Shown: positions 1 through 58,648 of the stretch, piece after piece
Layout: each line of letters starts with the position of its first letter
Numbering within the stretch: position 1 is the stretch's first letter
Assembly: GCA_964494945.1 (NCBI GenBank)
Contig: CAZBTX010000003.1
Location: forward strand, 47,897-111,896
Direction of reading: 5' to 3'
Length of the DNA stretch: 64,000 bases
Origin: an uncultured Candidatus Saccharibacteria bacterium
GTDB lineage: Bacteria > Patescibacteriota > Minisyncoccia > Sungbacterales > JACQCQ01
Notes under the pieces: generated by a model
The model's input: the letters and a program-made list of their open reading frames with translations, nothing else
What the model was told of the DNA's origin: nothing
Databases searched by the model: none
Made by a program: the position numbers and the translations under genes

Positions 1-495
1 GTGGTCGCGGCGCGCAATCAGGCGGCACGAGCCGTCGGGGAATGCGAGATAGATTCCCTCGCGGATATCCCATACGGTCGTACCGGTGGCGAGAAAATCA
101 GGCACCGGCAGGGCCAGTGCCCACGTGCCACGCGAGAACCATCCGTCGGCGTGGTACGTCCACTCCTCGCCCTCGGCCGGGGTTCCGAAACCCGGAACCT
201 CGATCATCGGGGTGAGGCGCTCCGGGCGGAGCGCATCCGCGGCGCGCTTGAGCCAGCCGCGCACATAGTGCGCCTCGCCCTGTTGCCCCACGTTCCGAAG
301 CGTCCCGGCGTGGAGCCATGAGCCGATGGCGACGTCGCCGTTCGGCTCGTAGTGCGCGAGGAGTGTGATCCCCGCGTTGGCGCCGAACGCAACGTAGTAC
401 GTACGCTGGTCGGCCGAGACCGCGAAAGTCCGGGGATGCCCCCCGGGGAACTCCCCGATGGGAGCGTCGAACAGGTAACTCTCTCTCGTTTCCAT
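1..495 (-). CDS. Hypothetical protein, high-GC (about 64%), 3' end beyond window edge. Hand-translated; absent from ORF track because its stop codon lies off-window. Begins METRESYLFDAPIGEFPGGHPRTFAVSADQRTYYVAFGAN...
   Basis: Open minus-strand frame from ATG at 495 down to position 1 with no stops; upstream in-frame TAG at 595-597. AGGGGAAAAGCA then ATG gives an SD-like site. Diverse, non-repetitive amino-acid composition, unlike the Arg-rich alternative frames 98..541 and 204..569. Confidence 0.55.
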   Translation of the reverse strand, partial: METRESYLFDAPIGEFPGGHPRTFAVSADQRTYYVAFGANAGITLLAHYEPNGDVAIGSWLHAGTLRNVGQQGEAHYVRGWLKRAADALRPERLTPMIEVPGFGTPAEGEEWTYHADGWFSRGTWALALPVPDFLATGTTVWDIREGIYLAFPDGSCRLIARRDH

Positions 496-926
496 TGCTT
501 TTCCCCTCGCCGCGCTTTGCGCGGCTCCGATCGTTTCGCACCCTGCACCATGCGGGATGCGTACCCCAATCCCCTCTATGCGGGGAAATTTGTTCTAAAC
601 GTACCTCTTAGAACCTCCGAACTTTCATTCCGAGATTCAGTTGAAGCACGAGGTGCGTTCCAGCGGACTTCGCAGGTCCGCACCTCGTTTCGCGTGCCCC
701 GTACGGAGCTGCCGGCCGCGAAAGCCGTTCGGTTCTGATTTGGCGTAGATTGTGGCAGGGCTCTACGCTCACCTTACCGAAAAAGGAATTGCCGGCCCAT
801 GGAAAGTCCCGTTGTCTTGATCTTGGCGATTCATCGGCTTCCCCGCGATGGGCCAAGTTTTTCTCATGCCATGCCTGTCGCCAACATGGGCTTCCCTCCT
901 TTCTTGCGCCTTTGGCTCGGCGCTAG

Positions 927-1247
927 TTACTGCTTCTTCTTGCCGGTGCCCATGCCGGCCGCCATCTGCCGATTCTCCTCGGCGCGACGGTCGCGGTTTT
1001 TGAGCTGACGCTTCTTCCGCGCCGCCTCGCACGAGTGCGAGGCCGTCCGCTCGGAGGCCTGCCGGTTGGCGAGCATACGCCTCGCGCAGGCGAGCCGCGG
1101 CCGCCAGAAGTCGGTGTATCCGAGCTCGTGCGACACGAGCTGGATGTCGGCCGCGACCGTCGAGGTCGCGATCTGACCCGGCAGGGTGCCGGCGAGAAAC
1201 TGGTGCAACCGCCGAATAGAAATGTTCAGGTCGTTCATCACGGTCAT
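927..1247 (-). CDS. Hypothetical 106-aa protein, high-GC, basic Lys/Arg-rich C-terminus
   Basis: ORF with GAGAGGAACAACG then ATG as RBS; coding-like composition. No family confidently recognised. Confidence 0.5.
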   Translation of the reverse strand: MTVMNDLNISIRRLHQFLAGTLPGQIATSTVAADIQLVSHELGYTDFWRPRLACARRMLANRQASERTASHSCEAARKKRQLKNRDRRAEENRQMAAGMGTGKKKQ

Positions 1248-1350
1248 CGTTGTTCCTCTCGTCGCGGTTCGCGGCTTCTGGTTTTCTTACGGAACTTTTA
1301 CTCCTTTGAATCCGCCAGCCAATCTGGTGGACTCGGTTAGAGTGGAGAGT

Positions 1351-1427
1351 TCCGTCCGTGCTTCGGACGGAGCTCTCCAAGGGATTGCTACCTGTGAGTT
1401 TCCCGAGCTCCGTCCGCTATCGGACGG
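1351..1427 (-). terminator. Two GC-rich hairpins downstream of the 1417..1812 gene: TCCGTCCG/CGGACGGA at 1351-1371 and CCGTCCG/CGGACGG at 1410-1427. They also pair with each other through GAGCTC extensions.
   Basis: Perfect 8-bp and 7-bp stems seen directly; the second loop contains the gene's stop codon. No clean T-run follows, so intrinsic-terminator function is tentative. Confidence 0.4.
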
Positions 1428-1812
1428 CGTTGCCTGGGTGACTCTTCTTCTCGGCGCGACGGCTCATCTCGGTTCCCACGGTCACGAGGCCGTAGGCAGC
1501 GAGGACGAGGTACGCTGGGGTAGCGCTTGCCCACATGTTGCGTTGCATGTTATCGATGACCCCCGCGAATCCGAAGAGCATCGGGATTACCGCGATGAAT
1601 GCCACTCCGCCCCAGCCCGAGTGGTAGCAGGAGCGCCGGCAGAACCGGAGCGCGAACCCGATGAACCCGATCGTCACCATCATCATGAAGAGGATGTATG
1701 ATGGTGTGGAGAGGTTTCCGTCGTGCCACCAGAAGAGGAGGCACGCCAGGAGGCCGACCGCGATCAGAACCACTTCGAGCGCGACGCATTGCCGATGTGT
1801 CAGTTCGCTCAT
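1417..1812 (-). CDS. Small integral membrane protein, 131 aa, 3-4 predicted TM helices, high-GC
   Basis: Start MSELTHRQC... at 1812 preceded by GGAGGGTCAC; the longer track ORF 1417..1926 extends upstream of this RBS. Hydrophobic segments visible in the translation. Confidence 0.55.
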   Translation of the reverse strand: MSELTHRQCVALEVVLIAVGLLACLLFWWHDGNLSTPSYILFMMMVTIGFIGFALRFCRRSCYHSGWGGVAFIAVIPMLFGFAGVIDNMQRNMWASATPAYLVLAAYGLVTVGTEMSRRAEKKSHPGNAVR

Positions 1813-1875
1813 GTGACCCTCCGCTGTTGTATAGCATTGCGGTTTTTGAACGGAAGTCGCGATTCTCCCTATCGG

Positions 1876-1933
1876 GAGAAAGATGACGAGAGAAATTATG
1901 TGAAGAACAATCGTAGCTCTCGTCATCTTTCTC
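1876..1933. repeat. Perfect 17-bp inverted repeat GAGAAAGATGACGAGAG ... CTCTCGTCATCTTTCTC with a 24-nt spacer, at the boundary between the high-GC block (1-1.85 kb) and normal-GC DNA
   Basis: Read directly; a smaller CTCCC/GGGAG hairpin lies immediately upstream (1864-1880). Confidence 0.6.
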
Positions 1934-2271
1934 CTTCCGTTTTGCTTTTGTCTCTATAGAAAAAACAAAACGGCCGGGAGATATTTTTTCACCCGCCTTC
2001 GCATAAAGCTTTAGCGGGCAAAGAAGAAGCATCTCCTGGCCGTTCAGAATGGGTTAAGGCATAAAGCCGTTTATTTTGAATACACCATTTGATAGCAATG
2101 AGAAAACCTCTCCTCAATTTTCCTTTGCTTTATGTGCCCTCCGAACCCTTTCAAGGTAGGGAGGCGTTATTTTTCAAATTGCGGGCCTTTCTTGCGGAAT
2201 CTTGAGTACTGAAATCTTACGTTTGCACCCTAGCATAGATTATTGACTTTGTCAAGTGCTTTGACATGAAA

Positions 2272-2311
2272 AGACACCAAAAACGGCTTATTTGCTGGGA
2301 AATAAGTCGTT
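2272..2311 (-). terminator. Rho-independent terminator of hppA
   Basis: On the minus strand, stem AAACGACTTATTT / AAATAAGCCGTTT (one G-U) then TTTTTGGTG; located 25 nt past the hppA stop. Confidence 0.55.
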
Positions 2312-2336
2312 TTGGGGTGGGTTGTTTTTTAGGGTT

Positions 2337-4334: not shown

Positions 4335-4353
4335 ATTTATTCTTATTTTTTAT

Positions 4354-4427
4354 CCCCCACACCAGAACGTGGGCTTATAGTATTTGCTTGATTGCTTTCG
4401 GCAATCTGCCCACGTTTGGTGTGGGGG
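4354..4427. mobile_element. MITE-like inverted-repeat element, copy 1. Arms CCCCCACACCAGAACGTGGGC (4354-4374) and GCCCACGTTTGGTGTGGGGG (4408-4427) with a 33-bp interior. The right arm lies inside the last codons of nusA and the interior contains the nusA stop.
   Basis: Near-perfect 20-bp inverted repeat seen directly. Same terminal motif as elements at 11835-11931, 20336-20651 and 59998-60095. Confidence 0.6.
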
Positions 4428-12545: not shown

Positions 12546-12774
12546 AAACCGCCAAAGAACCCGTGAAAAACATCGGCGGGAACTATATTTTGAATTTGCT
12601 TGCACTTGAGTATAGTCGAAGTGGGGGACGGAAAAATTTTCATAAGGATCTTATACGAGAGGTAATAGAAGTGCTGATTTTTTGTTGCTATTGACTTTTG
12701 CGAATGTTTATTCTATACCGTAAACAGTAGTTCAATCCCCTAAATAGCCGTCAACAGACGGCAAGGAGGAGCTC

Positions 12775-13311
12775 ATGATCAGCCGACACACTCTCGAAGG
12801 ACACATGGATGTTCGGGAAGTAAAGGTGAGGCCGGCCATATATCACCTGGTCGGTCCAACCACCGAACGGATGCCGGTGATGACGGGCGAACGTCCGATG
12901 AACTGGGGCTGGGAGAAGCTCTCGGAGCTTTCCGAGATCGCCGGGACCCGAGGCACCGATCTGGTGATGGAGTTTATCTGCATCAGGCCCTGGCGCCTCG
13001 GAAGCAGAGAAGGTGGTAGTATCACACTCGCTATCCCCGACTCCCCAGATGGGTTCGTCATGTATGGCAGAGGCGAGAAGTTTCTAACTCGGGGCTGCTG
13101 GGGGAGCGGGCCCCTCTACACTGTCGCGATCGAGGAAGCCGAGTTTCGGTCGTACCTAGACAAGATGATCGCCAGTCATGAGGTTTTTGTGCCGGCCGGA
13201 TGGGCGATCGCGGTCCTTGAGGACATGATGAAGATCCGCCGCCGCAGGGATGATCAGCGACACAATGACGAGGAGCGGCGGCGACGTGAAGAGGCTTCTC
13301 AGTTCGGCTAA
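12775..13311 (+). CDS. Hypothetical 178-aa protein, high-GC (about 60%), family unknown
   Basis: AAGGAGGAGCTC then ATG; candidate promoter TTGACT-N17-TATACC about 100 nt upstream; own GC-rich terminator. Confidence 0.6.
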   Translation: MISRHTLEGHMDVREVKVRPAIYHLVGPTTERMPVMTGERPMNWGWEKLSELSEIAGTRGTDLVMEFICIRPWRLGSREGGSITLAIPDSPDGFVMYGRGEKFLTRGCWGSGPLYTVAIEEAEFRSYLDKMIASHEVFVPAGWAIAVLEDMMKIRRRRDDQRHNDEERRRREEASQFG

Positions 13312-13345
13312 AGGAAAGGCGTGCCAGCGCCGAGCAACAACTTCT

Positions 13346-13380
13346 GACGAAGTACCTGGCAGTACTTCGTCTTTATTTTT
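13346..13380 (+). terminator. Rho-independent terminator (GACGAAGTAC-CTGGCA-GTACTTCGTC then TTTATTTTT)
   Basis: Perfect 10-bp stem followed by T-run, 35 nt after the stop of 12775..13311. Confidence 0.75.
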
Positions 13381-21650: not shown

Positions 21651-21690
21651 AATCGAGAAATTGAAAATCGTCGGGGGCATCCCCGACGAT
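21651..21690 (-). terminator. Rho-independent terminator of the high-GC gene (ATCGTCGGGG-GCAT-CCCCGACGAT, then a T-run on the minus strand)
   Basis: Perfect 10-bp GC-rich stem then TTTTCAATTTC on the transcribed strand. Confidence 0.7.
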
Positions 21691-21734
21691 TGCGAGCCTT
21701 TGTGGCCGCTCGCCTCACCGACTTCGTCCGAGTG

Positions 21735-22205
21735 CTACCGGTGCGTATGGCCGAGCATCTTCATGAGGCCGGTCACGTCGATGATCGCCCCGTGGGTATG
21801 CTCCTCGATCGTGACGATCTGGCCGCCCCTGCGGATGGCGACGTCGGTCGTCAGCGTCGCCGGGAAGTCCGCCTTGACCTCCCCCCAGAAGAGCTGTTTG
21901 GTGGTCTTCAGCCGGTTCTGGATCTCAGCGTCCTCGGACATCAGCGGCCGAACCCTCTCCTCGAGCGCCACCGCGTTCATCTGCTTGGGATCGATGTCGG
22001 CGATCACGTGAAGGATCCGCCGAAGGAACGCCTCGTACTCGGCGCCGATTTGCTTCACAACGCCCCAGAGGCGCAGGAGCTCATCCGAAGCCGTGCCCAC
22101 GACCGTTTCGTCGGGCTGGGGTTTCGACTCGGCTAGACCCGCCAGCACCTGCTGGGGGTCCACCTTCGCCATCGCGTCCGCGATCTTTCGCATCAGGTTC
22201 GTCAT
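21735..22205 (-). CDS. Hypothetical 156-aa protein, high-GC (about 63%)
   Basis: AAGGAGGCGGCAG then ATG; candidate promoter TTGACA-N17 about 60 nt upstream; own terminator. Confidence 0.6.
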   Translation of the reverse strand: MTNLMRKIADAMAKVDPQQVLAGLAESKPQPDETVVGTASDELLRLWGVVKQIGAEYEAFLRRILHVIADIDPKQMNAVALEERVRPLMSEDAEIQNRLKTTKQLFWGEVKADFPATLTTDVAIRRGGQIVTIEEHTHGAIIDVTGLMKMLGHTHR

Positions 22206-22501
22206 CTGCCGCCTCCTTGTGGGTGGGGTAGCTGCGTCAGTAAAATAACAATAGATTCAGTTATTGTCAACTCAAGGATTTTTCTGATAGCATTGATTAG
22301 TATGCCGAAGCATTCCGTAGTGGGATTTAAAAATGAAATCTATAATTGGCATTTTCCGCCGCTTCCTTAGTCCTTAATTCTTACTGAATGGATCCCGTTA
22401 GAAGCCGCGATCGCGAAAGAAATTTAAAGAATAAATTATGGCATTATTAAGAGATTATTATAAGCAGAAAGCGACTCTGATCGCGATCTGCTTCTAACGG
22501 G

Positions 22502-44185: not shown

Positions 44186-44226
44186 TAAAGAAGAAAAAGC
44201 CGACCCCCTTTATCTTGGAGTCGGCT
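44186..44226 (-). terminator. Terminator of the secreted-protein operon (AGCCGAC ... GTCGGCT then TTTTTCTTCTTT on the minus strand)
   Basis: 7-bp GC stem, 15-nt loop, T-run. Confidence 0.5.
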
Positions 44227-44248
44227 CTGTTGCGGCCGCGTAGCGGTC

Positions 44249-44716
44249 TTACTTCACCTTGTAGAACTTCCCCTCCCACGTCACCTTCCGGAGCTCGCCG
44301 GTTCCTCGCAGCATGCCGCCGAAAGTGGGAGAGTACTCCAAATCCCACTTGATCGTGCTCTCCGTTCCACCCTCGAGCTTGAGCTTGAGCTTCTTGTAGT
44401 CGGCGTCGAGGAACGCGGTACCGCTCATGGGGATGTTTCTGTTGCGGTTTGTGTACTGCAGATCGACGTTACCGGCGTCGTCGATCCTCTCCACCACGAA
44501 GATGGTGGGATTCATGCCGTCGTCGTACTTCCACTTGCCGAGGAGCGGCCGGAACTTCTCCGGGGTCTCGGAGGTGGACGCCTTCACAGCATCCTTGGGG
44601 GCACCCTCCTGCGCGACGACCGGGGCCTGCTGGGCCGCGGTGATGGTCGTGAACGTGAACACGTTCACGAGCGCGAACAGCGCGATGATGGGAGTGATAG
44701 CGGTGAGGTTCTTCAT
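44249..44716 (-). CDS. Secreted protein A, 155 aa, high-GC (about 64%), signal peptide MKNLTAITPIIALFALVNVFTFTTITAAQQAPVVAQ
   Basis: GGGAGAAGACC then ATG; classic n-h-c signal peptide; unknown mature domain. Confidence 0.6.
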   Translation of the reverse strand: MKNLTAITPIIALFALVNVFTFTTITAAQQAPVVAQEGAPKDAVKASTSETPEKFRPLLGKWKYDDGMNPTIFVVERIDDAGNVDLQYTNRNRNIPMSGTAFLDADYKKLKLKLEGGTESTIKWDLEYSPTFGGMLRGTGELRKVTWEGKFYKVK

Positions 44717-44741
44717 GGTCTTCTCCCTGTGTTGTGGCGGC

Positions 44742-45089
44742 CTATGTCCCACCACCCTTGACGATCTTGCGGGTCATCTCGTCAACCCCATCGGTTGAAT
44801 CCGGGCTGACGGCGACGCATCTGTGAGTTGCCCAGTCGTACTTCCCGTCCTCCGTGCCGCAGAGGGCGTCCAGGGCCCAGTCGATCCACGTCTCTTCCGG
44901 CTTGGCGCTGTCAAAGCGCGGCCAGTTGGCTGGTGCTGGCGCGAGCACACTGCCGCTACGAGACGTTTCTCCCCCCTGCGCGACGACCGGGGCCTGCTGG
45001 GCCACGGCGGGACTCGTGAACGTGAACACGTTCACGAAGACGAGCGCGAGAACCGTGATGATGGGAAAGAGCGGACGCTTCGTGGTCAT
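44742..45089 (-). CDS. Secreted protein B, 115 aa, high-GC, signal peptide nearly identical to protein A (…VLALVFVNVFTFTSPAVAQQAPVVAQ); unrelated mature domain
   Basis: GGGAGGTTCCGCA then ATG; about 60 nt of near-identical DNA shared with gene A across the signal-peptide region. Confidence 0.6.
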   Translation of the reverse strand: MTTKRPLFPIITVLALVFVNVFTFTSPAVAQQAPVVAQGGETSRSGSVLAPAPANWPRFDSAKPEETWIDWALDALCGTEDGKYDWATHRCVAVSPDSTDGVDEMTRKIVKGGGT

Positions 45090-45144
45090 TGCGGAACCTC
45101 CCATGGTTCGGGCTGGACCTAGAAGTCGTTTGTTGAGTATATTC

Positions 45145-45173
45145 TATATACTCTATTCCATTAAAAATGTCAA
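45145..45173 (-). promoter_or_regulatory. Sigma-70-like promoter for the secreted-protein operon (minus strand: TTGACA-N17-TATATA)
   Basis: Hexamers read directly as reverse complement of 45168-45173 and 45145-45150; about 55 nt upstream of ATG 45089. Confidence 0.55.
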
Positions 45174-47676: not shown

Positions 47677-48222
47677 ATGCCGAAGCTCGCGGATGTCCTG
47701 CCGGCAGAAGCCAAGACCATTTTTGACGCCAACCCGCTGGACTGGAGTTTCTGCTACGCTAAGGAACGGCTGGCGCGTCTCTATCCGTTCGCTGTAGCGG
47801 ATGTTATCTGGGACGACGGGAGCGGTCTTTATTTGGTCAACGTGGCGCGCTGTCTCGAGGAGTACCCGCGTTTTCAGCACGGGGTCCCGGTAACGATGGC
47901 CAAGCTCTACTGGAAAGAGCCGCCGTCTTTTAAGCATCGCCATTCTTTCCGCGCGCCAGCCACGGCTGGCGTCACAACGCTTCGGGTGACAACAGTGCTA
48001 ACGCCCGCAGAGCTCGCGCACAGTTTCGAGATGGTCGTCCCGGATTTGCTTTGGGGCTGGCTGGAGCGTCGCCGCCGGGCGATCTTCGGTGATGCCGAAA
48101 GCAAGTCAAAGGTATCCTTCACCTTCTTCGCGGAGCACATCCGCGTTGAGGTTGAGGGAGCCGAGAATAGGCCCGATCTTTTCGTCGTCTCACTCGCGCT
48201 GGGCGACTGGGACGACTATTAG
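47677..48222 (+). CDS. Hypothetical 181-aa protein, high-GC (about 62%), 55 nt downstream of tRNA-Arg(CCT)
   Basis: GGAGGTTGAC then ATG; own terminator. Confidence 0.6.
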   Translation: MPKLADVLPAEAKTIFDANPLDWSFCYAKERLARLYPFAVADVIWDDGSGLYLVNVARCLEEYPRFQHGVPVTMAKLYWKEPPSFKHRHSFRAPATAGVTTLRVTTVLTPAELAHSFEMVVPDLLWGWLERRRRAIFGDAESKSKVSFTFFAEHIRVEVEGAENRPDLFVVSLALGDWDDY

Positions 48223-48236
48223 GCAGATTCTATCTG

Positions 48237-48280
48237 CACCCCACCCCGGCGTAGACACGCCGGGATGGGGCAACTTTTTC
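48237..48280 (+). terminator. Rho-independent terminator (CCCGGCG-TAGACA-CGCCGGG, extended CCCC/GGGG, then CAACTTTTTC)
   Basis: GC stem plus T-run after the high-GC gene. Confidence 0.6.
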
Positions 48281-52139: not shown

Positions 52140-52143
52140 GAGC

Positions 52144-52181
52144 GGCCTCGCTTGAACTTTGCAAAGTTCAAGCGAGGCCGG
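52144..52181. terminator. 38-bp perfect palindrome CGGCCTCGCTTGAACTTTG|CAAAGTTCAAGCGAGGCCG between convergent genes
   Basis: Seen directly; 17-bp stem with 4-nt loop. Confidence 0.6.
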
Positions 52182-52183
52182 CG

Positions 52184-52456
52184 TTACAAGGTGAACGGGA
52201 CTTCCACCCACTCGTGTGTCTCGGAAGTTTCTTCTTCCGTTTGCGTTACCGTCGTCGTAAGGATCAAAATCCTCGGCGTTCCGACAAAAGGAGGGTCGGC
52301 TAGCTTTTGTCGTTTCACCATCGTTCTTGCGGCTTCCTCCACTTGAGTCGGGTCGAGGTCTTTGCCGATAAAGATGGCCCGCGAGACGGGGACGGCGGCG
52401 GGGGCTCGCGCAGGAACCCGAAGAGCCACCAAAAATACATGCCTCGTTGTTTTCAT
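52184..52456 (-). CDS. Hypothetical 90-aa protein, moderately high-GC
   Basis: GGAGGCGCTA then ATG. Confidence 0.5.
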   Translation of the reverse strand: MKTTRHVFLVALRVPARAPAAVPVSRAIFIGKDLDPTQVEEAARTMVKRQKLADPPFVGTPRILILTTTVTQTEEETSETHEWVEVPFTL

Positions 52457-53328: not shown

Positions 53329-53366
53329 GAAAAATCAGCCAGTGATTGGCTGATTTTTCGTTTGGC
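53329..53366 (+). other. Strong hairpin GAAAAATCAGCCA-GTGAT-TGGCTGATTTTTC followed by GTTT, in the 5' leader of the high-GC gene
   Basis: Perfect 13-bp stem; absent from the otherwise similar copy-2 region. Confidence 0.5.
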
Positions 53367-53434
53367 TGAACTTGTTTTTTCTCTTGCAAAGCGCTACATT
53401 CCCACCACGCGGTCATACACGAAAGGAGAAGGTC

Positions 53435-54148
53435 ATGAGGGAAGAAGATCTCAGTGCGGTGGTTTCCCATGGGGAAAGCTCGCTTCTGAAGACCGATCTC
53501 AACCAAGCGGTAATGGCACTCGCGGCCGCACACGAGTCGCACTTCCGGCCGCACGTTTGCCTGAACGGCGAAGACGGTGTGAGGGTCATCGGCGAAATCA
53601 TGCCAACCTCGAACACGGCGTTCCACCTCTGGCACCACATGATCGCTTCCGGGGACGACGTGTGGCTGAACATCATCCTCTGCGTCTACCTCAACGACTT
53701 CTGCATACCGACCAATCTCGCGCGGTTAAGTCCTCGGCAGTCGGCCTATGTCATCGCGAACCTGCCGGCCGAGTCGCGGACGGCTGTTCTCGCCAAGGCC
53801 AAGCGCTGGTACCTCGAGAGGTTCCTCGCCGACATCAAGAAGGGCCTCGACACCATCACCAAGCAGTTCGAGCACGGTGATCCGCTCCTCGAGAGCGACC
53901 ATCGGAATCGGATCCTCGATCTCCACGGCGAGCGCTTCTCTATGGGCATCCCGTACACCGAGACGTGGGTCGTCGGTGAGCAGCTCTTCTGGGCCACGTG
54001 CTACGGCGGGACGATGTTCGAGCACGAGGAGGACGGGTTCCTCCGCGCGGATGAACTCATCACCGCGAGGCGCGAACGGCAGAAAGGCACTGTCGAAGCT
54101 GTCGTAGGCGTATTCCGGGGGCTGGAGCGGATCAAACGAGGAATTTGA
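53435..54148 (+). CDS. Hypothetical 237-aa protein, high-GC (about 62%)
   Basis: AAGGAGAAGGTC then ATG; the track's longer ORF 53372.. extends through the leader. No family recognised. Confidence 0.6.
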   Translation: MREEDLSAVVSHGESSLLKTDLNQAVMALAAAHESHFRPHVCLNGEDGVRVIGEIMPTSNTAFHLWHHMIASGDDVWLNIILCVYLNDFCIPTNLARLSPRQSAYVIANLPAESRTAVLAKAKRWYLERFLADIKKGLDTITKQFEHGDPLLESDHRNRILDLHGERFSMGIPYTETWVVGEQLFWATCYGGTMFEHEEDGFLRADELITARRERQKGTVEAVVGVFRGLERIKRGI

Positions 54149-54266
54149 CCGTAACGACTTCGGAGATGGAGAGCCATCTCGTCTTACCACAGCCACCCTC
54201 GCCGATGGCAACAGTGCCAACGGCGAGGGTCTCCCATCCCAAAAATCTCCGGTACATGTTCCCATA

Positions 54267-54288
54267 GAACAATTCCATAGAATTGTCC
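54267..54288. promoter_or_regulatory. Palindromic site GAACAATTC-CATAG-GAATTGTCC, copy 2, about 35 bp upstream of the GNAT start
   Basis: Core ACAATTC-CATAG-GAATTGT identical to the other copies. Confidence 0.55.
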
Positions 54289-54321
54289 TATGTTCGCACT
54301 TTTTTCAAAATTGGCCACCAT

Positions 54322-54801
54322 ATGGCAAATCCGGGAAAATCATCAGGAAAAGAGCTGAAAATATCTTTCCGAAAATCTACTAATGAAGATTTTGATTTTG
54401 TCTTTAAGCTTAATAAAACCAACATGCAAAAGTATGTTGAAAAGATAAGAGGATGGGACGAGGAAGCTGAACGCAAAGATATGAAAGACAAGTTTACAGC
54501 TGACATTGATTTGATAATTCAAATAAATGGAGAGGACGCGGGGGTTCTCCGCGTGCTGGAAAAAGAAGGTTCGATAAATCTCGGCCACATTGAGTTACTC
54601 CCCAAGTTTCAGAATCAAGATGTCGGCAGCAAAATTATTGAAGGCGTGATACGTAAAAATAAACCAGTGACCTTACAAGTTCTAAAATCAAATCCCGCCG
54701 TAGAATTATATAAAAGACTTGGATTTGAGATAATGGGAGAAACAGACCTAAAATATAAAATGTCGATTCAAGTAAGCCCAAAATCGACCGTTAATCGATA
54801 A
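54322..54801 (+). CDS. GNAT-family N-acetyltransferase
   Basis: Acetyl-CoA-binding motif region '...QNQDVGSKIIEGVI...LKSNPAVELYKRLGFE'. Confidence 0.7.
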   Translation: MANPGKSSGKELKISFRKSTNEDFDFVFKLNKTNMQKYVEKIRGWDEEAERKDMKDKFTADIDLIIQINGEDAGVLRVLEKEGSINLGHIELLPKFQNQDVGSKIIEGVIRKNKPVTLQVLKSNPAVELYKRLGFEIMGETDLKYKMSIQVSPKSTVNR

Positions 54802-54811
54802 AAGGAGCACT

Positions 54812-54855
54812 AATAAATAAAAAAGCTGCGCCCGCTTGGGAAACCAAGCGGGCGC
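54812..54855 (-). terminator. Rho-independent terminator for 54863..55093 (GCGCCCGCTTGG-GAAA-CCAAGCGGGCGC, then a T-run on the minus strand)
   Basis: Perfect 12-bp stem with GNRA-like loop and AGCTTTTTTATTTATT on the transcribed strand. Confidence 0.7.
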
Positions 54856-54862
54856 CGGTGTT

Positions 54863-55093
54863 CTAGAACTCGAAACGCTGGGGGAGTAACTCCGCTGTTT
54901 CCGGGATCTCCGGGTAGGGGATGTACCCCTCAACCCCCGCTCGCACGCCCTTGATGAACATATCGAGATGTTCACGGGTAGGACAAGTTTCCTCCCAGAC
55001 GCCCCCGTCGCGTTCCACTTCTACGTGGAAGATGTCGATTTCCGGGTCGAGATTGACCCGGTACCGCCTGATGCGGATGGTAATTTCCCTCAC
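54863..55093 (-). CDS. Hypothetical 76-aa protein, high-GC (about 57%); GTG start
   Basis: GGGAGAACTCCGCC then GTG; 13 bp downstream of 55107..55772; followed by a strong terminator. Confidence 0.5.
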   Translation of the reverse strand: MREITIRIRRYRVNLDPEIDIFHVEVERDGGVWEETCPTREHLDMFIKGVRAGVEGYIPYPEIPETAELLPQRFEF

Positions 55094-55106
55094 GGCGGAG
55101 TTCTCC

Positions 55107-55772
55107 CTAGTCCGCCAAGGTGGGGTCGTGAAGATAGGCCGTCTGCTCGAGGAGATGCACGCCCTTCAGCTCAAGATCGGCATGATCGGGGGCACGCAGG
55201 ATTCCCTCGGCGAACATGTGGGTCTGCCCCTCGCTTATCCTGATGCGCGTCCCGTGGCCATTCAGTTGATGGCGCGTTCCAAAGACTGACTGATCCTTTA
55301 CTTCGTCCGGGTCCTTAAACTCCGGCAGGTTGGAAAGAATGACGCTCATGCGGGCCACTTCTTTCCACGAAGACGAAACCGGGAAAGCAAAGATATCTCC
55401 CTGCCGTTTTGCTTTCTTGCCGAGAAGGTTCTCGAGGCGGCGGATGTGAGGAGGGCGCAGGGCTTCAAAAAATCCCTTTTCGCCGCCCTTATTGAAGGCA
55501 TCCCGCACGCTGCCGTTCAGACGCACGAGAAAGGGTTCCTCGTCGGTCCCGCCAAAAAACGTCAAGTCATCGTCGTAGCTGTTTCTCGTTCTCGCGGCGA
55601 AGAGAAACTGCGTCCCTCGGGCAAGCTGCACGATCCGGGCTTCCGGATAGAGCGGAAGTGTAATGATATCTTTTTGTCGCGCGGGAGCCAACCGCTTTTC
55701 ATACGGGACCCATTCGATGCGCGCTTTTCCTGCCCGAGTTGGGAGCTTGGGATTCGACACCATAACGTTCAT
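55107..55772 (-). CDS. Hypothetical 222-aa protein, high-GC (about 55%)
   Basis: GAGGAGGACGAC then ATG (MNVMVSNPKLP...). Confidence 0.55.
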   Translation of the reverse strand: MNVMVSNPKLPTRAGKARIEWVPYEKRLAPARQKDIITLPLYPEARIVQLARGTQFLFAARTRNSYDDDLTFFGGTDEEPFLVRLNGSVRDAFNKGGEKGFFEALRPPHIRRLENLLGKKAKRQGDIFAFPVSSSWKEVARMSVILSNLPEFKDPDEVKDQSVFGTRHQLNGHGTRIRISEGQTHMFAEGILRAPDHADLELKGVHLLEQTAYLHDPTLAD

Positions 55773-55861
55773 GTCGTCCTCCTCTGAAGTTTTAGCTTCT
55801 ATACTTTCAAAGACCCGATTGCATCGTCGCATTTGCGTTGAGATTATCTAGACAATCGGGA

Positions 55862-55888
55862 ATTGACTCAAATTTGATTTGAGTCAAT
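55862..55888. promoter_or_regulatory. Palindrome ATTGACTCAAAT-TTG-ATTTGAGTCAAT, 22 bp upstream of the wHTH-Nudix gene (candidate autoregulatory operator, overlapping a TTGACT -35-like hexamer)
   Basis: Perfect 12-bp arms. Confidence 0.5.
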
Positions 55889-55909
55889 CATTGCTGCGAG
55901 AATAGCATC

Positions 55910-56566
55910 ATGCATTTCATCCAGCAGCACATCCTGAAATTGCTCACCTACGGGGGAGCCAAGCGGTACTCCGATTTGAAACCGTCCGGAGTAGAAGGCA
56001 ACCGGTTTATGTATCATCTGAACCGGCTGATCGCCGGCGGGTACATCCGAAAAACAAAGTCGGGCTATTTTCTCGCGGCATTCGGCAATCGGTATGTTGA
56101 TAAATTGAGTTTGAAAACATTCACGCCCCGCATACAGCCCAAAATCGTCACGGTCCTTCTTTGCCGGAATAAGGCGGGAGAATATCTTACGTACACAAGG
56201 AACCACGAGCCATTTAAGAACTTACTGGCTTTTCCGTACGGCAAGCTGCATCTTACGGAAACCATATATGAAGCGGCGGCGCGCGAACTAAAGGAAAAAA
56301 CCGGCCTTGCCGGTAAACTTTCTCATCGGGGTGATGTGTATCTGAAGATCTTTTTGGAAAAAGAATTTATCACCCACATGCTTTGTCACGTGTTTGAGGG
56401 AAAAGATCTAAAAGGCACGTTGGTCAAGGAGTCCGACTACGGATCATGCCGATGGCAAGCGCTGGATGCCGCCAAATCAAAAGAATGGATACCGGGATTT
56501 TTGGAAATTGAGAAATTATGCCGGAAAGGACCTGCTCGTTTCTTTGACGAGTTGACGCTCTTGTGA
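55910..56566 (+). CDS. NUDIX hydrolase with N-terminal winged-helix DNA-binding domain
   Basis: Nudix box GKLHLTETIYEAAARELKEKTGL; N-terminal '...LLTYGGAKRYSDL...' wHTH-like segment. Confidence 0.7.
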   Translation: MHFIQQHILKLLTYGGAKRYSDLKPSGVEGNRFMYHLNRLIAGGYIRKTKSGYFLAAFGNRYVDKLSLKTFTPRIQPKIVTVLLCRNKAGEYLTYTRNHEPFKNLLAFPYGKLHLTETIYEAAARELKEKTGLAGKLSHRGDVYLKIFLEKEFITHMLCHVFEGKDLKGTLVKESDYGSCRWQALDAAKSKEWIPGFLEIEKLCRKGPARFFDELTLL

Positions 56567-56677
56567 GCCGCATCCATCCCCGGACCAAGTCCCGCGGGGC
56601 TGGGGTTTGAAACACTGCTCCCCGAAAACTGTTTATATACAATATTAATAATTAATAGGGCGTGCCGGCGAAGAAAT

Positions 56678-56710
56678 AGTCATTGAACAATTCCATAGAA
56701 TTGTCCTATG
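56678..56710. promoter_or_regulatory. Palindromic site copy 3 (TAGTCATTGAACAATTC-CATAG-GAATTGTCCTATGA) upstream of the ArsR-family gene, near a TATAAT box
   Basis: Shares left arm with copy 4 and right arm with copies 1/2. Confidence 0.55.
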
Positions 56711-56794: not shown

Positions 56795-57061
56795 ATGAAA
56801 AGGTGGACAGTGGTTTTTAGAGCCCTGGCAAATATAAACCGGCTTAAGATAATTAAGATGCTCTCCAACGGCCGAAAGATGAGCGTTACCGAGATCGCGG
56901 AAGATATCGGCATTTCCTTCAAGGCAACCTCAAACCATTTGGCGTTGTTGAAGAATTTAGACGTCGTAGAGGCGCGGGGGGCCTTGGGCCATGTTTTCTA
57001 TTCTTTTAATCGGCAACTGCCCAAAGATTTCCAAAAAACAATTGAGATCGCCCTGAAATAG
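56795..57061 (+). CDS. ArsR/SmtB-family transcriptional regulator (no metal-binding Cys motifs)
   Basis: HTH '...MSVTEIAEDIGISFKATSNHLALLKNLDVVEAR...'. Confidence 0.75.
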   Translation: MKRWTVVFRALANINRLKIIKMLSNGRKMSVTEIAEDIGISFKATSNHLALLKNLDVVEARGALGHVFYSFNRQLPKDFQKTIEIALK

Positions 57062-57096
57062 TCATTGAACAATTCCATAGAATTGTTCAATGACTA
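57059..57096. promoter_or_regulatory. Palindromic site copy 4 (TAGTCATTGAACAATTC-CATAG-GAATTGTTCAATGACTA, 17-bp perfect arms). Begins with the ArsR stop codon and is followed by TTTTCTG, so it may double as a terminator hairpin.
   Basis: Contains TGAACA...TGTTCA half-sites typical of ArsR/SmtB-family operators. Confidence 0.55.
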
Positions 57097-57138
57097 TTTT
57101 CTGAAATTCTAATTTCAAAATAGTAAAAATATGAAAAA

Positions 57139-57363
57139 ATGAAAAAATCGGATTACTTTTTTAGAAGTTTAGTGAATGCCGCGGGTGTCTTTATTTATAT
57201 GTCCGGTGTAGCGTGGCTGGGTTTTAATAACCAGATGATTTTCGGCAAGCCAACTAATTTTCTTACGCCGTTATTCGTACTTCTGTTATTCGTCATATCC
57301 GCTTCCGTGACGGGCCTTTTGGTCTTCGAACCCATCTCTAAAATATCTCCAGCCGCGATATAG
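57139..57363 (+). CDS. Small membrane protein, 74 aa, 2 TM
   Basis: ORF with two hydrophobic helices; 77 bp after the ArsR gene. Confidence 0.45.
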   Translation: MKKSDYFFRSLVNAAGVFIYMSGVAWLGFNNQMIFGKPTNFLTPLFVLLLFVISASVTGLLVFEPISKISPAAI

Positions 57364-57454
57364 GCCAATTTCAGGCAATCCCAGAAGCGATGACGAAGGT
57401 GTATCCTCTGCGATACTCTGAGGAGGAGCGACGCAGGAGTGCCTGAAATTGGCC
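57363..57454. repeat. Long inverted repeat GGCCAATTTCAGGCA ... TGCCTGAAATTGGCC (15-bp perfect arms, 62-nt spacer) starting at the stop codon of 57139..57363
   Basis: Seen directly; spacer contains further short repeats (CCTCTGCG twice). Confidence 0.55.
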
Positions 57455-57744
57455 ATATCCCGCAGGGTTCTTACATTTTTCTTCCTCTGCGGCGTTACTC
57501 CTCGTCGCCGTAGTGCTGCGACTACGGCTTCCTCGTCGTGCCTTGCAGGAAAAGAAAAATTCTAAAGAACGCGACTCGGATATATTTTAGAGATGGGTTC
57601 TAGGCAAACCTATTCACTTGTATTTAGGTGGCCTTAGAAAAGAAGCATTTACCTTGCTTTTTGCCACTTTGGCGTGGCTTATTCTCTTTCTTGCCGCGGT
57701 TGTGATTGTGTTATTGGCGCGGTAGTTTTTTCAGTTTTTGTTTG

Positions 57745-57790
57745 CGTCCACTAAAAATTGAGAAGGCCCGACTCGCCGGCGAGTCGGGCC
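57745..57790 (-). terminator. Rho-independent terminator for 57793..58092 (GGCCCGACTCGCC|GGCGAGTCGGGCC palindrome, then a T-run on the minus strand)
   Basis: Perfect 13-bp arms directly after the stop; TTCTCAATTTTTAG on the transcribed strand. Confidence 0.7.
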
Positions 57791-57792
57791 TT

Positions 57793-58092
57793 TTAGGTCG
57801 CGGTCTTTACCGCGCGCGGGAGGATTACCTCAAATTCCTCACGCAGTTCCGGTTCAACGGCGGCGTAGGGCGTGATTAGCGGCAGGCCGTTCTCTGCAGA
57901 AAGCTCGAGCATCTCTTCTGCGGCGAAGCGCCGGAGAATTTCGTTCAGTGTCCAGCCGGGGCCGAACGCGGGCTTAATGCCTATTCTCCTGGTTCTTGCG
58001 AAGATCTCTATCACGAGGTCTCTCCAAGAGATTTGCCCGCCGAGATGATCCGCCAAAATACGGCGGATGAGATACACCATGAAGTCCTTCAT
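57793..58092 (-). CDS. Hypothetical protein of about 100 aa, high-GC (about 57%)
   Basis: GGGGGAGGTGA region upstream of clustered GTG/ATG starts; strong terminator. Confidence 0.5.
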   Translation of the reverse strand: MKDFMVYLIRRILADHLGGQISWRDLVIEIFARTRRIGIKPAFGPGWTLNEILRRFAAEEMLELSAENGLPLITPYAAVEPELREEFEVILPRAVKTAT

Positions 58093-58249
58093 CACGATGG
58101 TCACGTTCTCACCTCCCCCCAGCGAGTTGAATCTATATTTAATGATAACTCAAGTCCCGCGTTAATTGGAAGAAGTTTATTGACATTTTAGGCATAACTG
58201 TTAAAACGTCTATAAGTTGTAGATTCCAAAAATTCGCAAGGAGGGTCGG

Positions 58250-58648
58250 ATGCAAAGACATGAAATCATAGGGGAACTGCAGGGCCCCGAGGACGTGGGG
58301 CGAGCTATCGATATCTACAGCTTCGTGGATAAAGTTCGGTTCATTTCATGGGTCATTCGGATCTCCGGGTTCATCGGCGGCGGCGGTTTCTTTCTTCTGC
58401 TTCCGCACGGGGGCGGATGGAAGTGGGAGCTGGCGGCGTTTGCAATCTCACTTGCCACCGGCTTCGTGGCCACGGGCTGCGCCCGGGCCGCGTTTGGGAG
58501 TGCTAGGAGGAAACTGGTGGCAGAGCTCGGGGTGTTGCTGGAGAGCGGTCAGGGGTACGTCCTGGTGCTCACTGAACTAACCCCGGAGGATTTCTGGCTT
58601 AACTGTTTCCTCCAGAAATATCTTCCGAAGTATGCCGAGTACGACTAG
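58250..58648 (+). CDS. Hypothetical 132-aa membrane protein, high-GC (about 58%)
   Basis: AAGGAGGGTCGG then ATG; hydrophobic Gly-rich helices; followed by a strong terminator. Confidence 0.55.
   Translation: MQRHEIIGELQGPEDVGRAIDIYSFVDKVRFISWVIRISGFIGGGGFFLLLPHGGGWKWELAAFAISLATGFVATGCARAAFGSARRKLVAELGVLLESGQGYVLVLTELTPEDFWLNCFLQKYLPKYAEYD

What the first reader, a model, noticed from the sequence alone, without database searches (positions are those of the whole stretch)
1..58648. At least 13 compact high-GC unknown-function genes, each with a canonical Shine-Dalgarno site and a GC-clamp terminator, scattered through an SD-poor host genome
Genes at <1-495, 927-1247, 1417-1812, 12775-13311, 21735-22205, 44249-44716, 44742-45089, 47677-48222, 52184-52456, 53435-54148, 54863-55093, 55107-55772, 57793-58092 and 58250-58648 are about 55-65% GC. 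Core genes are about 47-50% and the accessory polysaccharide and secreted loci about 31-40%.

Every one is preceded by a strong GGAGG-type ribosome-binding site at canonical spacing. Most are followed by a perfect 10-16-bp GC stem plus T-run. Surrounding core genes (pilM, pilO, hppA, lnt, macAB, LOG, nusA) show no recognisable SD.

Several sit directly next to tRNA genes: Arg-TCT at 11848, His at 21052, Arg-CCT at 47548 and Ala at 52530. Two have their own TTGACA-N17 promoters.

None matches a family I recognise. The signature is repeated acquisition of foreign, self-contained expression units from a high-GC, SD-using donor. For an epibiotic CPR lineage an actinobacterial host is an attractive source, but that is speculation. 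The genes could also form an unrecognised functional set.
Basis: partly seen in the sequence, partly recalled or inferred. Interest (0 to 1): 0.75.

Follow-up and report, generated by a model that had tools for sequence, protein, structure and literature searches.

The report
GC-rich ribosome-site gene cassettes in Sungbacteria
A groundwater Candidatus Sungbacteria genome whose ordinary genes lack ribosome-binding sites carries about 15 small GC-rich genes of unknown function, each a self-contained unit with promoter, strong ribosome-binding site and terminator; relatives of the three families tested occur only in related tiny bacteria and one phage, not in a high-GC donor.

Summary
The window comes from a Candidatus Sungbacteria MAG (GCA_016181625.1 population).

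- **Composition and SD:** the listed genes are 55-67% GC (GC3 0.60-0.89). Their SD:anti-SD duplex energy averages -9.3 kcal/mol, against -1.2 for 49 core genes (p=1.5e-7).
- **Terminators:** 8 of 13 candidates have strong hairpin-plus-T terminators, against 2 of 48 core genes.
- **Assembly:** three stretches carrying seven of the candidate genes are spanned by independent assemblies, so chimerism is excluded there.

The genes are autonomous, partly mobile expression cassettes, but nothing points to an actinobacterial or other high-GC donor.

- **Homologs:** the three families I could search have relatives only in Sungbacteria or Patescibacteria-type contigs, plus one SD-using phage.
- **Same signature elsewhere:** in those genomes the relatives again carry a strong SD and usually excess GC, inside SD-poor, 32-51% GC genomes.
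- **Position:** some sit next to the same neighbour gene (NUDIX-c55107; c53435 with an ArsR regulator). One, c21735, sits at a different locus and has less synonymous divergence than the core genes.

Best reading: a lineage-wide pool of moron-like accessory cassettes that depend on SD because their GC-rich 5' ends are structured. The cause of the high GC, the protein functions (two confident models have no known fold) and the 16S anti-SD remain open.

The parts
1..495 (-). c1: 5' part of a 278-aa GC-rich gene (GC 0.67, GC3 0.83) that runs off the left end of the window; SD GAGGGG
   Evidence: complete gene in Logan contig L108, which matches window 1-2517 at 100%
927..1247 (-). c927: 106-aa gene, GC 0.66, GC3 0.89, weak SD (GAGGA, -6.0); last gene of the left-hand GC-rich island
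1343..1926 (-). c1417: membrane protein (131 aa from ATG 1812, or 169 aa from ATG 1926; both starts have an SD); marginal DUF6234 match; 16-bp hairpin at 1343-1379 without a T-run
12691..13371 (+). c12775 unit: TTGACT-N17-TATAC promoter-like site at 12691-12718, SD AAGGAGGAG, CDS 12775-13311 (178 aa, GC 0.59), terminator 13346-13371
   Evidence: junctions confirmed by L003-L005
17224..17524 (-).
21666..22270 (-). c21735 unit: TTGACA-N17-TATTTT promoter 22270-22242, SD AAGGAGG, CDS 21735-22205 (156 aa, GC 0.64, GC3 0.89), conserved 3'UTR hairpin containing 21704-21719, terminator 21691-21666
44198..45173 (-). Two-gene unit of paralogous secreted proteins: promoter-like TTGACA-N17-TATATA at 45173-45145, c44742 (44742-45089) and c44249 (44249-44716), each with its own SD, terminator 44226-44198
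47677..48270 (+). c47677 unit: starts 54 nt after tRNA-Arg(CCT); SD TGGAGG, CDS 47677-48222 (181 aa, GC 0.60), terminator 48239-48270
52143..52456 (-). c52184 unit: CDS 52184-52456 (90 aa, GC 0.55), SD CGGAGG, perfect 16-bp palindromic hairpin 52143-52180; divergent from tRNA-Ala
53435..54230 (+). c53435 unit: SD AAGGAG, CDS 53435-54148 (237 aa, GC 0.61, GC3 0.80), 16-bp hairpin 54195-54230. Member of a small family (31 clusters at 50% identity) with no known fold
54828..55772 (-). Two-gene unit c55107 (55107-55772, 221 aa) and c54863 (54863-55093, 76 aa), divergent from a wHTH-NUDIX gene; SDs GAGGAGG and GGGAG; terminator 54855-54828. Family shared with Patescibacteria-type contigs and one phage
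57763..58104 (-). c57793 unit: corrected start GTG 58104 (103 aa), SD GGGAGGTGA, terminator 57792-57763
58180..58700 (+). c58250 unit: TTGACA-N17-TAAAAC promoter-like site 58180-58207, SD AAGGAGGG, CDS 58250-58648 (132 aa membrane protein), 15-bp terminator 58668-58700

Best explanation
The GC-rich genes are a distinct class of autonomous accessory gene cassettes, native to the gene pool of Sungbacteria and allied Patescibacteria.

**Structure (shown at consensus level).** Each unit carries its own sigma70-type promoter, a roughly 30-45 nt leader with a strong Shine-Dalgarno site, a GC-rich coding sequence and, in most cases, an intrinsic terminator. It can therefore be expressed wherever it lands between housekeeping genes.

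**Contrast with core genes (shown).** The housekeeping genes start translation without an SD, from A/T-rich, weakly structured start regions.

**Why the SD is kept (inferred).** The cassettes have GC-rich, structured start regions and so depend on SD:anti-SD pairing. That would explain why the SD is retained in nearly all homologs, even where the GC excess has faded.

**History (partly shown).** Some cassettes are long-term residents inherited together with a neighbouring gene: c55107-c54863 beside NUDIX, and c53435 near an ArsR-type regulator. Others move as whole promoter-to-terminator units among Sungbacteria (c21735). At least one family is shared with an SD-using phage.

**How it compares.** The units behave like phage 'morons' scattered in a bacterial chromosome. 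They do not look like recent imports from a high-GC host.

**Open.** The proteins belong to small lineage-restricted families of unknown function: secreted, membrane and cytosolic, and two have no known fold. I infer host-interaction or conflict-type accessory roles, but this was not shown.
For: **The dichotomy inside the window.**
- SD energy differs between candidates and core genes.
- So do terminators.
- Start-region folding energy is -15.7 against -8.2 kcal/mol (p=3e-5). Upstream composition is G 0.34 and T 0.09 for candidates, G 0.13 and T 0.30 for core genes.

**Source and continuity.**

**Homologs are lineage-restricted.**
- c55107: 14 relatives at 32-48% identity.
- c53435: 31 clusters among 1.84 billion representatives.
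- c21735: 3 relatives, one annotated as Candidatus Sungbacteria.

**Contexts of the homologs**.
- All 5 c55107-family members and all 3 c21735-family members have an SD of -8.8 to -12.6 kcal/mol.
- About 6 of 8 c53435 relatives do as well.
- All lie among SD-less housekeeping genes in genomes of 32-51% GC.
- The GC excess ranges from 0 to +0.13.
- L100 and L087 contain further, unrelated genes that are both GC-rich and SD-led.

**Conserved neighbourhoods and equal divergence.**
- NUDIX is 54% and c55107 48% identical between the window and L087. Both are saturated at synonymous sites.
- c53435 and the HTH_5 gene are neighbours in both the window and L095.

**Mobility of the c21735 unit.**
- It occupies a different locus in L100.
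- Homology runs from the -35 box to the 3' hairpin.
- Identity at four-fold sites is 0.72 (0.39 expected, permutation p=6e-4), against 0.42 for nusA and 0.35 for hppA. Protein identity is 59% against 71-79%.

**Phage link.** L104 carries a DNA polymerase, ThyX and Sak4. Most of its genes are SD-led, and it has a c55107 homolog.
Against: - The other 11 are untested beyond profile libraries and phage or plasmid records.
- The cause of the persistently high GC3 is unexplained. c21735 homologs have GC3 of 0.74-0.89 against backgrounds of about 0.53.
- No insertion mechanism, target duplication or recombinase was found.
- The 3' end of the 16S rRNA of this genome was not available, and the anti-SD motif was reported in only 48% of Parcubacteria 16S sequences (PMC9297842). 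That the SD sites function in this cell is therefore inferred from their conservation, not shown.
- Several context contigs have no taxonomic label. Only L095 (Patescibacteria) and L100-L103 (Sungbacteria) are named.
- Loci chosen without bias through MacB in other Patescibacteria are SD-poor but show no class of GC-rich SD-led genes. The class is therefore not universal.
- c1417's marginal DUF6234 match could point to an origin outside the lineage.
Confidence: 0.5

Rival explanations
1. Vertically inherited, selection-maintained 'SD regulon'. The GC-rich SD-led genes would be an old native gene class. Their translation would be gated by the availability of the 16S anti-SD, as in Bacteroidia, where bS21, bS18 and bS6 sequester it. 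High GC and the SD would both be kept by selection, and mobility would be incidental.
For: - The SD is conserved in homologs at 36-48% protein identity, even where the GC excess has gone (L095, L106).
- The GC3 offset of c55107 is the same (+0.10 relative to the adjacent NUDIX) in two genomes that are saturated at synonymous sites.
- c53435 shares an 18-nt palindromic operator with neighbouring low-GC genes and an ArsR-type regulator.
- There is a precedent for SD sites acting as regulatory elements in an SD-poor phylum (PMC7797042).
Against: - The c21735 unit changes locus and has lower synonymous divergence than the core genes.
- Different, unrelated cassettes occupy the slot after hppA in the window and in L100.
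- One family occurs in a phage.
- No ribosomal-protein gene is among the SD-led genes of the window.
- The anti-SD status is unknown.
Confidence: 0.2
2. Phage-derived leftovers. The cassettes would be morons or fragments of SD-using phages of Sungbacteria, left behind singly after prophage decay or recombination.
For: - The c55107 family is present in IMGVR_UViG_3300031673_016581, between a MarR gene and ThyX. Most genes on that contig have strong SD sites.
- The units have the moron architecture, an independent transcription unit of atypical composition (PMC3594210).
- A GIY-YIG gene and toxin-antitoxin-like genes lie nearby.
Against: - There is no phage structural, integrase or replication gene in the window.
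- PHROGs gave nothing for the 10 candidates tested, and no phage record was hit by any of the 14.
- The c53435 and c21735 families were absent from IMG/VR.
- The phage contig is about 50% GC, lower than the cassettes.
- The flanks are housekeeping genes at every site.
Confidence: 0.15
3. One reading: repeated recent horizontal acquisition from a high-GC, SD-using non-CPR donor, for example an actinobacterial host.
For: - GC3 reaches 0.89, and codon usage is distinct (for example CTC makes up 0.55 of four-fold Leu codons, against 0.19 in core genes).
- The units carry complete foreign-looking expression signals.
- c1417 marginally matches DUF6234. From memory that family is mostly actinobacterial, but I did not verify this.
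Against: - None of the three searched families has a relative in a high-GC context. All contexts are SD-poor, 32-51% GC genomes of Patescibacteria type.
- There is no tblastn hit in 72,556 plasmids or 50,697 phage records.
- Neighbourhoods are conserved and divergence equals that of the neighbour gene.
- The promoters sit in A/T-rich native DNA.
Confidence: 0.1
4. Artefact: chimeric assembly or mis-binning of high-GC reads into a CPR contig.
For: None beyond the compositional contrast itself.
Against: - Independent Logan assemblies from four sequencing runs reproduce three stretches (window 1-2517, 11963-14466 and 52575-56702) at 100% identity. These carry seven of the candidate genes.
- A second NCBI contig carries the same genes.
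- The same pattern appears in unrelated samples (L087, L100, L105).
Confidence: 0.01

Closest known systems
Phage 'morons' (independent transcription units spread among phage genomes; PMC3594210)
   Same: - One or two genes with their own promoter and terminator.
- Nucleotide composition unlike the surrounding DNA.
- Inserted between conserved genes without disturbing them.
- Homologs found at different positions in related genomes.
- One family is also present in a phage.
   Different: - These units lie between housekeeping genes of a bacterial chromosome, not inside a prophage.
- There are about 15 of them in 64 kb.
- They also differ from the host in how translation starts: they have an SD and the host genes do not.
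SD-poor translation in Bacteroidia, with a few SD-bearing regulatory genes (rpsU and rpsR; anti-SD sequestered by bS21, bS18 and bS6; PMC7797042)
   Same: - Genome-wide absence of SD sites, with A/T-rich, unstructured start regions.
- A small minority of genes carry strong, conserved SD sites.
   Different: - Here the SD-bearing genes are GC-rich accessory ORFans, not ribosomal-protein genes.
- They make up about 16% of the ORFs in the window.
- Neither anti-SD sequestration nor even the presence of an anti-SD is known for this lineage (PMC9297842).
Genomic islets or ORFan genes acquired by horizontal transfer (atypical GC, sometimes next to tRNA genes)
   Same: - Atypical GC and codon usage.
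- Lineage-restricted ORFans.
- Variable location.
- Two units lie next to tRNA genes.
   Different: - The compositional offset and the SD persist in homologs at 36-60% identity in several genomes.
- No donor lineage is visible.
- There are no integrases or direct repeats.
- tRNA adjacency is no more than chance would give.
Integron gene cassettes
   Same: Single-gene mobile units, each ending in an inverted repeat.
   Different: - The units are scattered, not in an array.
- Each has its own promoter.
- The 3' hairpins are ordinary GC stems with T-runs. They share no sequence with each other and have no attC core sites.
- No integrase is present.

Membership tests
Phage moron | Independent transcription unit with its own promoter and terminator | tested here: met
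   TTGACA-type -35/-10 matches lie upstream of c12775, c21735, c44742 and c58250. The promoter is conserved in the L100 homolog. Eight of 13 genes (about 8 of 10 units) end in a strong hairpin plus T-run. This is consensus-level evidence only; there are no transcript data.
Phage moron | Located inside a phage or prophage genome, between conserved phage genes | tested here: not met
   The flanks are housekeeping genes (nusA, hppA, pil genes, hisS, macB, LOG and others). Neither the Pfam-annotated flanking genes nor the 10 candidates run against PHROGs show a phage hallmark.
Phage moron | Nucleotide composition different from the surrounding genome | tested here: met
   GC is 0.55-0.67 against 0.43-0.53. 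GC3 is 0.18 above the window median.
Phage moron | Homologs spread among phage genomes | tested here: inconclusive
   One of the three families tested (c55107) has a homolog in an IMG/VR contig. c53435 and c21735 have none.
Horizontally acquired island from a foreign high-GC donor | Closest homologs lie in the donor lineage rather than in relatives of the recipient | tested here: not met
   For c55107, c53435 and c21735, every homolog with recoverable context lies in an SD-poor genome of 32-51% GC. The named ones are Sungbacteria or Patescibacteria. There were no plasmid or phage hits. Eleven families could not be searched.
Horizontally acquired island from a foreign high-GC donor | Association with tRNA genes, integrases or flanking direct repeats | tested here: not met
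   Two of 14 are directly beside a tRNA gene, which is about the chance expectation. There is no integrase. No repeats flank the units.
Integron cassette | attC recombination site, intI integrase, arrayed promoterless cassettes | tested here: not met
   The hairpins share no sequence with each other. The units are scattered and each has its own promoter. No integrase domain was found.
Bacteroidia-type SD-regulated genes | SD-poor genome that still carries a canonical anti-SD, occluded by ribosomal proteins | not testable with these tools
   SD poverty was shown. No 16S 3' end is available in the window or in the fetched loci; L091 holds only 16S positions 1-977. Only 48% of Parcubacteria 16S sequences were reported to carry CCTCCT (PMC9297842).
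Bacteroidia-type SD-regulated genes | The SD-bearing genes are rpsU and rpsR (autoregulation) | tested here: not met
   None of the SD-led genes in the window matches a ribosomal protein family.
Pfam DUF6234 (c1417 only) | Score above the Pfam gathering threshold | tested here: met
   28.1 bits against a cut-off of 27.5, E=2.9e-6, covering residues 41-127. The match is marginal, and NCBIfam gave nothing for c1417.

The most novel reading that the evidence does not exclude
Sungbacteria and some allied Parcubacteria may run two translation-initiation regimes in one cell. Housekeeping mRNAs would initiate without an SD. A conserved class of GC-rich accessory genes, possibly for host interaction or conflict, would be strictly SD-dependent. 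The availability or occlusion of the 16S anti-SD could then switch the whole accessory class on or off. The unusual GC3 would be held by selection on mRNA structure or stability, and would not be a relic of transfer.
Probability: 0.2. Interest if true: 0.8.

Novelty: new variant of a known kind. Interest (0 to 1): 0.58.

Why it matters
CPR/Patescibacteria genomes are full of small hypothetical genes, and their translation apparatus is unusual: ribosomal proteins are missing, and the anti-SD is reported absent in many Parcubacteria.

A clean, conserved split between SD-less core genes and GC-rich, SD-led accessory cassettes would be useful in three ways.

- It gives a simple sequence signature for picking out the flexible or accessory genes of these uncultured organisms.
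- It argues that SD:anti-SD recognition still works in at least these Parcubacteria.
- It raises a testable possibility that translation initiation is used to partition or regulate gene classes, as recently shown for Bacteroidia.

It also warns against reading high-GC islands in CPR genomes as host-derived DNA without checking for homologs.

Two of the families (c53435 and c55107) are confidently foldable and have no structural relatives.

Tried and rejected
- **Concatenated query.** A concatenated multi-protein query in the search for homologous proteins returned nothing, not even self-hits, and wasted one of three searches.
- **Profile libraries.** Pfam (all 14 candidates) and PHROGs, PADLOC and NCBIfam (10 candidates each) gave nothing usable, apart from the marginal DUF6234 match and a sub-threshold TIGR03066 hit.
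- **Phage and plasmid records.** tblastn of all 14 proteins against both collections gave no match.
- **Shared ancestry among the cassettes.** Only c44249 and c44742 are related. c1 against the c55107 profile gave only a 17-column hhalign match at 60% probability.
- **Synteny through MacB.** The closest genomes are only 60% identical and share just the macAB operon, so no empty-site comparison was possible.
- **Integron, MITE or REP explanation.** Rejected: no shared repeat flanks the units.
- **RNA-gene explanation.** Rejected: Rfam finds only five tRNAs in the window, and GC3 periodicity supports coding.
- **tRNA-targeted integration.** Rejected as no more than chance.
- **Extending the genome beyond the window.** Two exact-protein look-ups failed.
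- **Anti-SD.** The 16S anti-SD sequence could not be obtained.

Full report
**Source and integrity**

Exact-protein look-ups place the window in a Candidatus Sungbacteria MAG population (NCBI GCA_016181625.1, contig JACOYZ010000014.1, 62,480 bp). The same proteins also occur on a 113,758-bp NCBI contig.

The 62,480-bp contig matches window 622-63119 at 99.98-100% identity, apart from two local variants. Independent Logan assemblies from four sequencing runs match the window at 100%:
- window 1-2517, so the first 621 bases are contiguous with the rest;
- window 11963-14466;
- window 52575-56702.

Together these cover the junctions of c1, c927, c1417, c12775, c53435, c54863 and c55107. Chimeric assembly is excluded at those sites. 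The junctions of the other seven candidates are not covered by an independent assembly.

**Checking the observation**

All listed ORFs exist.
- GC is 0.55-0.66 and GC3 0.60-0.89. The order GC3 > GC1 > GC2 is as expected for real coding sequence.
- Core genes are 0.43-0.53 GC. A third, low-GC class of polysaccharide and toxin-antitoxin-like genes is 0.32-0.41.

*SD sites.* The SD:anti-SD duplex energy averages -9.35 kcal/mol for 13 candidates and -1.21 for 49 core genes (p=1.5e-7). No core gene reaches -8. To guard against start-codon errors I allowed any start in the first 25 codons. Then 13 of 80 ORFs reach -8 or lower, and these have GC3 0.18 above the median (p=7e-7). A scrambled anti-SD gives 2 of 80.

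*Terminators.* The strongest hairpins found by the scanner all lie just 3' of candidates. In my own test, 8 of 13 candidates and 2 of 48 core genes have a GC-rich stem of at least 8 bp plus a T-run (Fisher p=1.6e-5). One of the two core cases is the bidirectional terminator shared with c54863. Three of the candidates without a full terminator (c44742, c55107 and c1417) are operon-internal.

*Start regions.* Candidate start regions (-30 to +40) fold at -15.7 kcal/mol, core ones at -8.2 (p=3e-5). Core leaders are A/T-rich (G 0.13), and the first 30 nt of their CDS are 37% GC.

*Corrections.*
- c57793 starts at GTG 58104.
- c927 has a weak SD.
- '<1-495' is part of a 278-aa gene.
- c1417 marginally matches DUF6234.
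- 17267-17524 is a probable extra member.
- tRNA adjacency (2 of 14 directly adjacent) is no more than chance.

**What the proteins are**

Only c44249 and c44742 are paralogs; both are secreted proteins sharing a signal peptide. All 14 candidates were run against Pfam and, by tblastn, against 50,697 phage and 72,556 plasmid records. Ten were run against each of PHROGs, PADLOC and NCBIfam. None of these gave an assignment. At 90% identity every cluster contains only this organism.

Three families could be searched deeply.
- **c55107** has 14 full-length relatives at 32-48% identity. The conserved motifs are FGGTDEEPFLVRL, KRQGDIF, TRH and APDH.
- **c53435** has 31 clusters among 1.84 billion representatives. 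Invariant motifs include CLN, WLN, PRQ and YTE.
- **c21735** has three relatives, one annotated as Candidatus Sungbacteria.

c55107 sits beside nucleotide-metabolism genes: a wHTH-NUDIX gene in the window and in L087, and ThyX in a phage. It sits beside MarR/TrmB regulators in L104 and L106. This is a weak lead towards nucleotide metabolism.

**Where the relatives live**

This is the key result.

*c55107 family.*
- In L087 (a 384-kb scaffold; core genes 35-39% GC with no SD) the c55107-c54863 pair is again divergent from the NUDIX ortholog. It is 48-49% GC, with SD energies of -10.2 and -9.5 and a GC hairpin terminator. Four neighbouring genes are also GC-elevated and SD-led.
- In L089/L090 (about 40% GC) the homolog is 47% GC, with SD -10.2 and a terminator.
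- In L106 it has an SD (-8.8) but no GC excess.

*c53435 family*.
- About 6 of 8 relatives from metagenome contigs have a clear SD: -8.2 to -12.6 in the five scored, and GAGGAGG in L097.
- One (L093) has only a weak site (-5.4), and L092 has none.
- The four longest contigs (11-21 kb) are 32-44% GC overall.
- GC excess ranges from 0 (L095, a named Patescibacterium) to +0.13.
- In L095 the gene is again next to a homolog of the window's ArsR-type HTH_5 gene.
- In the window, c53435, a low-GC GNAT gene and that regulator share a four-copy 18-nt palindrome, where 0.02 copies would be expected by chance.

*c21735 family.*
- The homolog in a Rifle Sungbacterium (L100-L103, 50% GC) has GC 0.61, GC3 0.81 and SD -12.1.
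- The same contig carries three further GC-rich SD-led genes. One lies just after hppA and is unrelated to the window's c1417 or c927 at that position.
- A 39%-identical relative (L105) has GC 0.60, GC3 0.74 and SD -11.9, against a background of 0.51.

No relative was found in a high-GC genomic background.

**Age and mobility**

Between the window and L087, NUDIX is 54% and c55107 48% identical. Four-fold sites are at the chance level for both, consistent with old co-inheritance. Yet the pair keeps a GC3 offset of +0.10 in both genomes.

Between the window and L100 the picture differs.
- nusA and hppA are 71-79% identical at the protein level. Their four-fold-site identity is 0.42 and 0.35, with 0.30 expected.
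- c21735 is only 59% identical at the protein level, but 0.72 identical at four-fold sites (0.39 expected; permutation p=6e-4; 29 sites).
- It sits at a different locus: upstream of nusA in L100, and near tRNA-His in the window.
- DNA homology runs from the -35 box (GTTGACA), through the SD and CDS, to a perfectly conserved 3'UTR hairpin. It stops there.

That is the signature of a whole expression unit that moved after the two lineages split and whose protein evolves fast.

One c55107-family gene lies in an IMG/VR phage contig. The contig carries a DNA polymerase, ThyX, Sak4 and MarR, and most of its genes are SD-led. The other two families are absent from IMG/VR.

**How general is it?**

Other Patescibacteria loci were fetched without bias through MacB, the closest at 60% identity. 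They are likewise SD-poor (0-17% of ORFs, near the scrambled control) but show no class of GC-rich SD-led genes in 12-21 kb samples.

The class is therefore seen in Sungbacteria and some allies, not in all Patescibacteria.

**Interpretation**

*Shown.*
- A clean two-class architecture inside the window.
- Homologs restricted to the lineage.
- Conservation of the SD, and usually of excess GC, in those homologs.
- Both conserved-neighbourhood and relocated cases.
- One link to a phage.

*Inferred.*
- The cassettes depend on SD pairing because their structured GC-rich starts cannot use the A/U-rich, SD-independent route.
- They form a moron-like flexible gene pool circulating within Parcubacteria and their phages.

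*Unexplained.*
- What maintains GC3 at 0.74-0.89 in c21735-type genes.
- How the units insert: no repeats and no recombinase were found.
- Whether this lineage's 16S rRNA carries an anti-SD. The motif was detected in only 48% of Parcubacteria 16S sequences (PMC9297842).

**Comparison with known systems**

- *Phage morons* (PMC3594210). The units work like them, but they fail the defining context: they are not in a prophage.
- *Bacteroidia* (PMC7797042). The coexistence of an SD-less majority with a few strong-SD genes recalls this phylum, where the SD sites of rpsU and rpsR are regulatory. Here, however, the SD-led genes are accessory ORFans, and the state of the anti-SD is unknown.
- *Integron cassettes and classical tRNA-linked islands.* Both are rejected on tested features.

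Two full-text searches (Shine-Dalgarno with 'Candidate Phyla Radiation', then with 'Patescibacteria') found no description of such a gene class in CPR bacteria.

**Verdict**

I classify it as a new variant of a known kind, with interest of about 0.6.

Noticed in passing
window 53267-53284, 54269-54286, 56687-56704, 57069-57086: The perfect 18-nt palindrome ACAATTCCATAGAATTGT occurs four times, where 0.02 copies are expected by chance. It lies in front of c53435, the GNAT gene 54283-54801, the ArsR/HTH_5 gene 56795-57061 and ORF 57139-57363. A 62-nt stretch around it is 89% identical upstream of c53435 and of the GNAT gene. It is probably an operator of the local ArsR-type regulator. c53435 and an HTH_5 homolog are also neighbours in L095.
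   Followed up: partly
window 4350-4371, 11831-11852, 20333-20354, 20631-20654, 59994-60015; L100 about 4090-4110: The motif TTTACCCCCACACCA(A/G)A recurs in intergenic DNA. As a 24-nt inverted repeat it brackets the GIY-YIG gene 20354-20611, and it flanks tRNA-Arg(TCT). It is also present upstream of nusA in the related Sungbacterium L100. Its function is unknown; it could be a promoter, a processing signal or a homing site.
   Followed up: no
window 10306-10334, 14438-14466, 63054-63115 and others: Repeats of the AATTTCTAA(T) type lie in the leaders of SD-less core genes, especially the pilus genes. They are possibly the native SD-independent initiation signal or a promoter signal.
   Followed up: no
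window 11936-11990, 60578-60629, 60654-60705: These tRNA-like sequences were not called by ARAGORN or Rfam. One is 76% identical to tRNA-Arg(TCT), just downstream of it. Another is 88% identical to the 3' half of tRNA-Ser(CGA). They may be extra or degenerate tRNA genes.
   Followed up: no
window 55569-55631 and 19017-19074: There are two strain or assembly variants relative to contig JACOYZ010000014.1. One is a 63-bp in-frame stretch inside c55107 that is missing from the NCBI contig. The other is a different sequence at the 3' end of the hisS region, 56 bp in the window against 102 bp in the contig.
   Followed up: partly
window 21695-21730 (minus strand); L100 4030-4075: A 3'UTR element, GGTGAGGCGAGCGGCC...GCTCGCAA, follows the c21735 stop codon directly and is perfectly conserved in the 59%-identical L100 homolog. 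It is more conserved than the coding sequence. It occurs nowhere else in the window or in other loci.
   Followed up: partly
L108 2023-2859 (window 1-495 plus 342 nt further left) and L108 3317-3760: c1 is a 278-aa protein. Its motifs (P.R..I.VP, RRQGDIF, NRH, HPQHD) are collinear with those of the c55107 family, which may mean remote homology, but hhalign gives only 60% probability over 17 columns. Further left lies another SD-led 147-aa gene with a strong terminator, so the left-hand GC-rich island extends beyond the window.
   Followed up: partly
window 12064-12545 and 20354-20611: Low-GC (0.35-0.36) accessory genes lie in the same flexible slots as the high-GC cassettes: a DUF4258/DUF2283 toxin-antitoxin-like pair next to c12775, and a GIY-YIG nuclease. 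The genome therefore has three compositional classes.
   Followed up: no
window 27262-34481: A YcaO cyclodehydratase gene (32991-34481) lies with two TPR proteins and unannotated genes. It may be a RiPP-type or modification locus, unrelated to the finding.
   Followed up: no
L091 1-85 and 10201-11275: The 70%-identical c53435 homolog lies about 700 bp upstream of a 16S rRNA gene, on a contig that begins with a 5S rRNA. Only 16S positions 1-977 are present, so the anti-SD could not be read.
   Followed up: no
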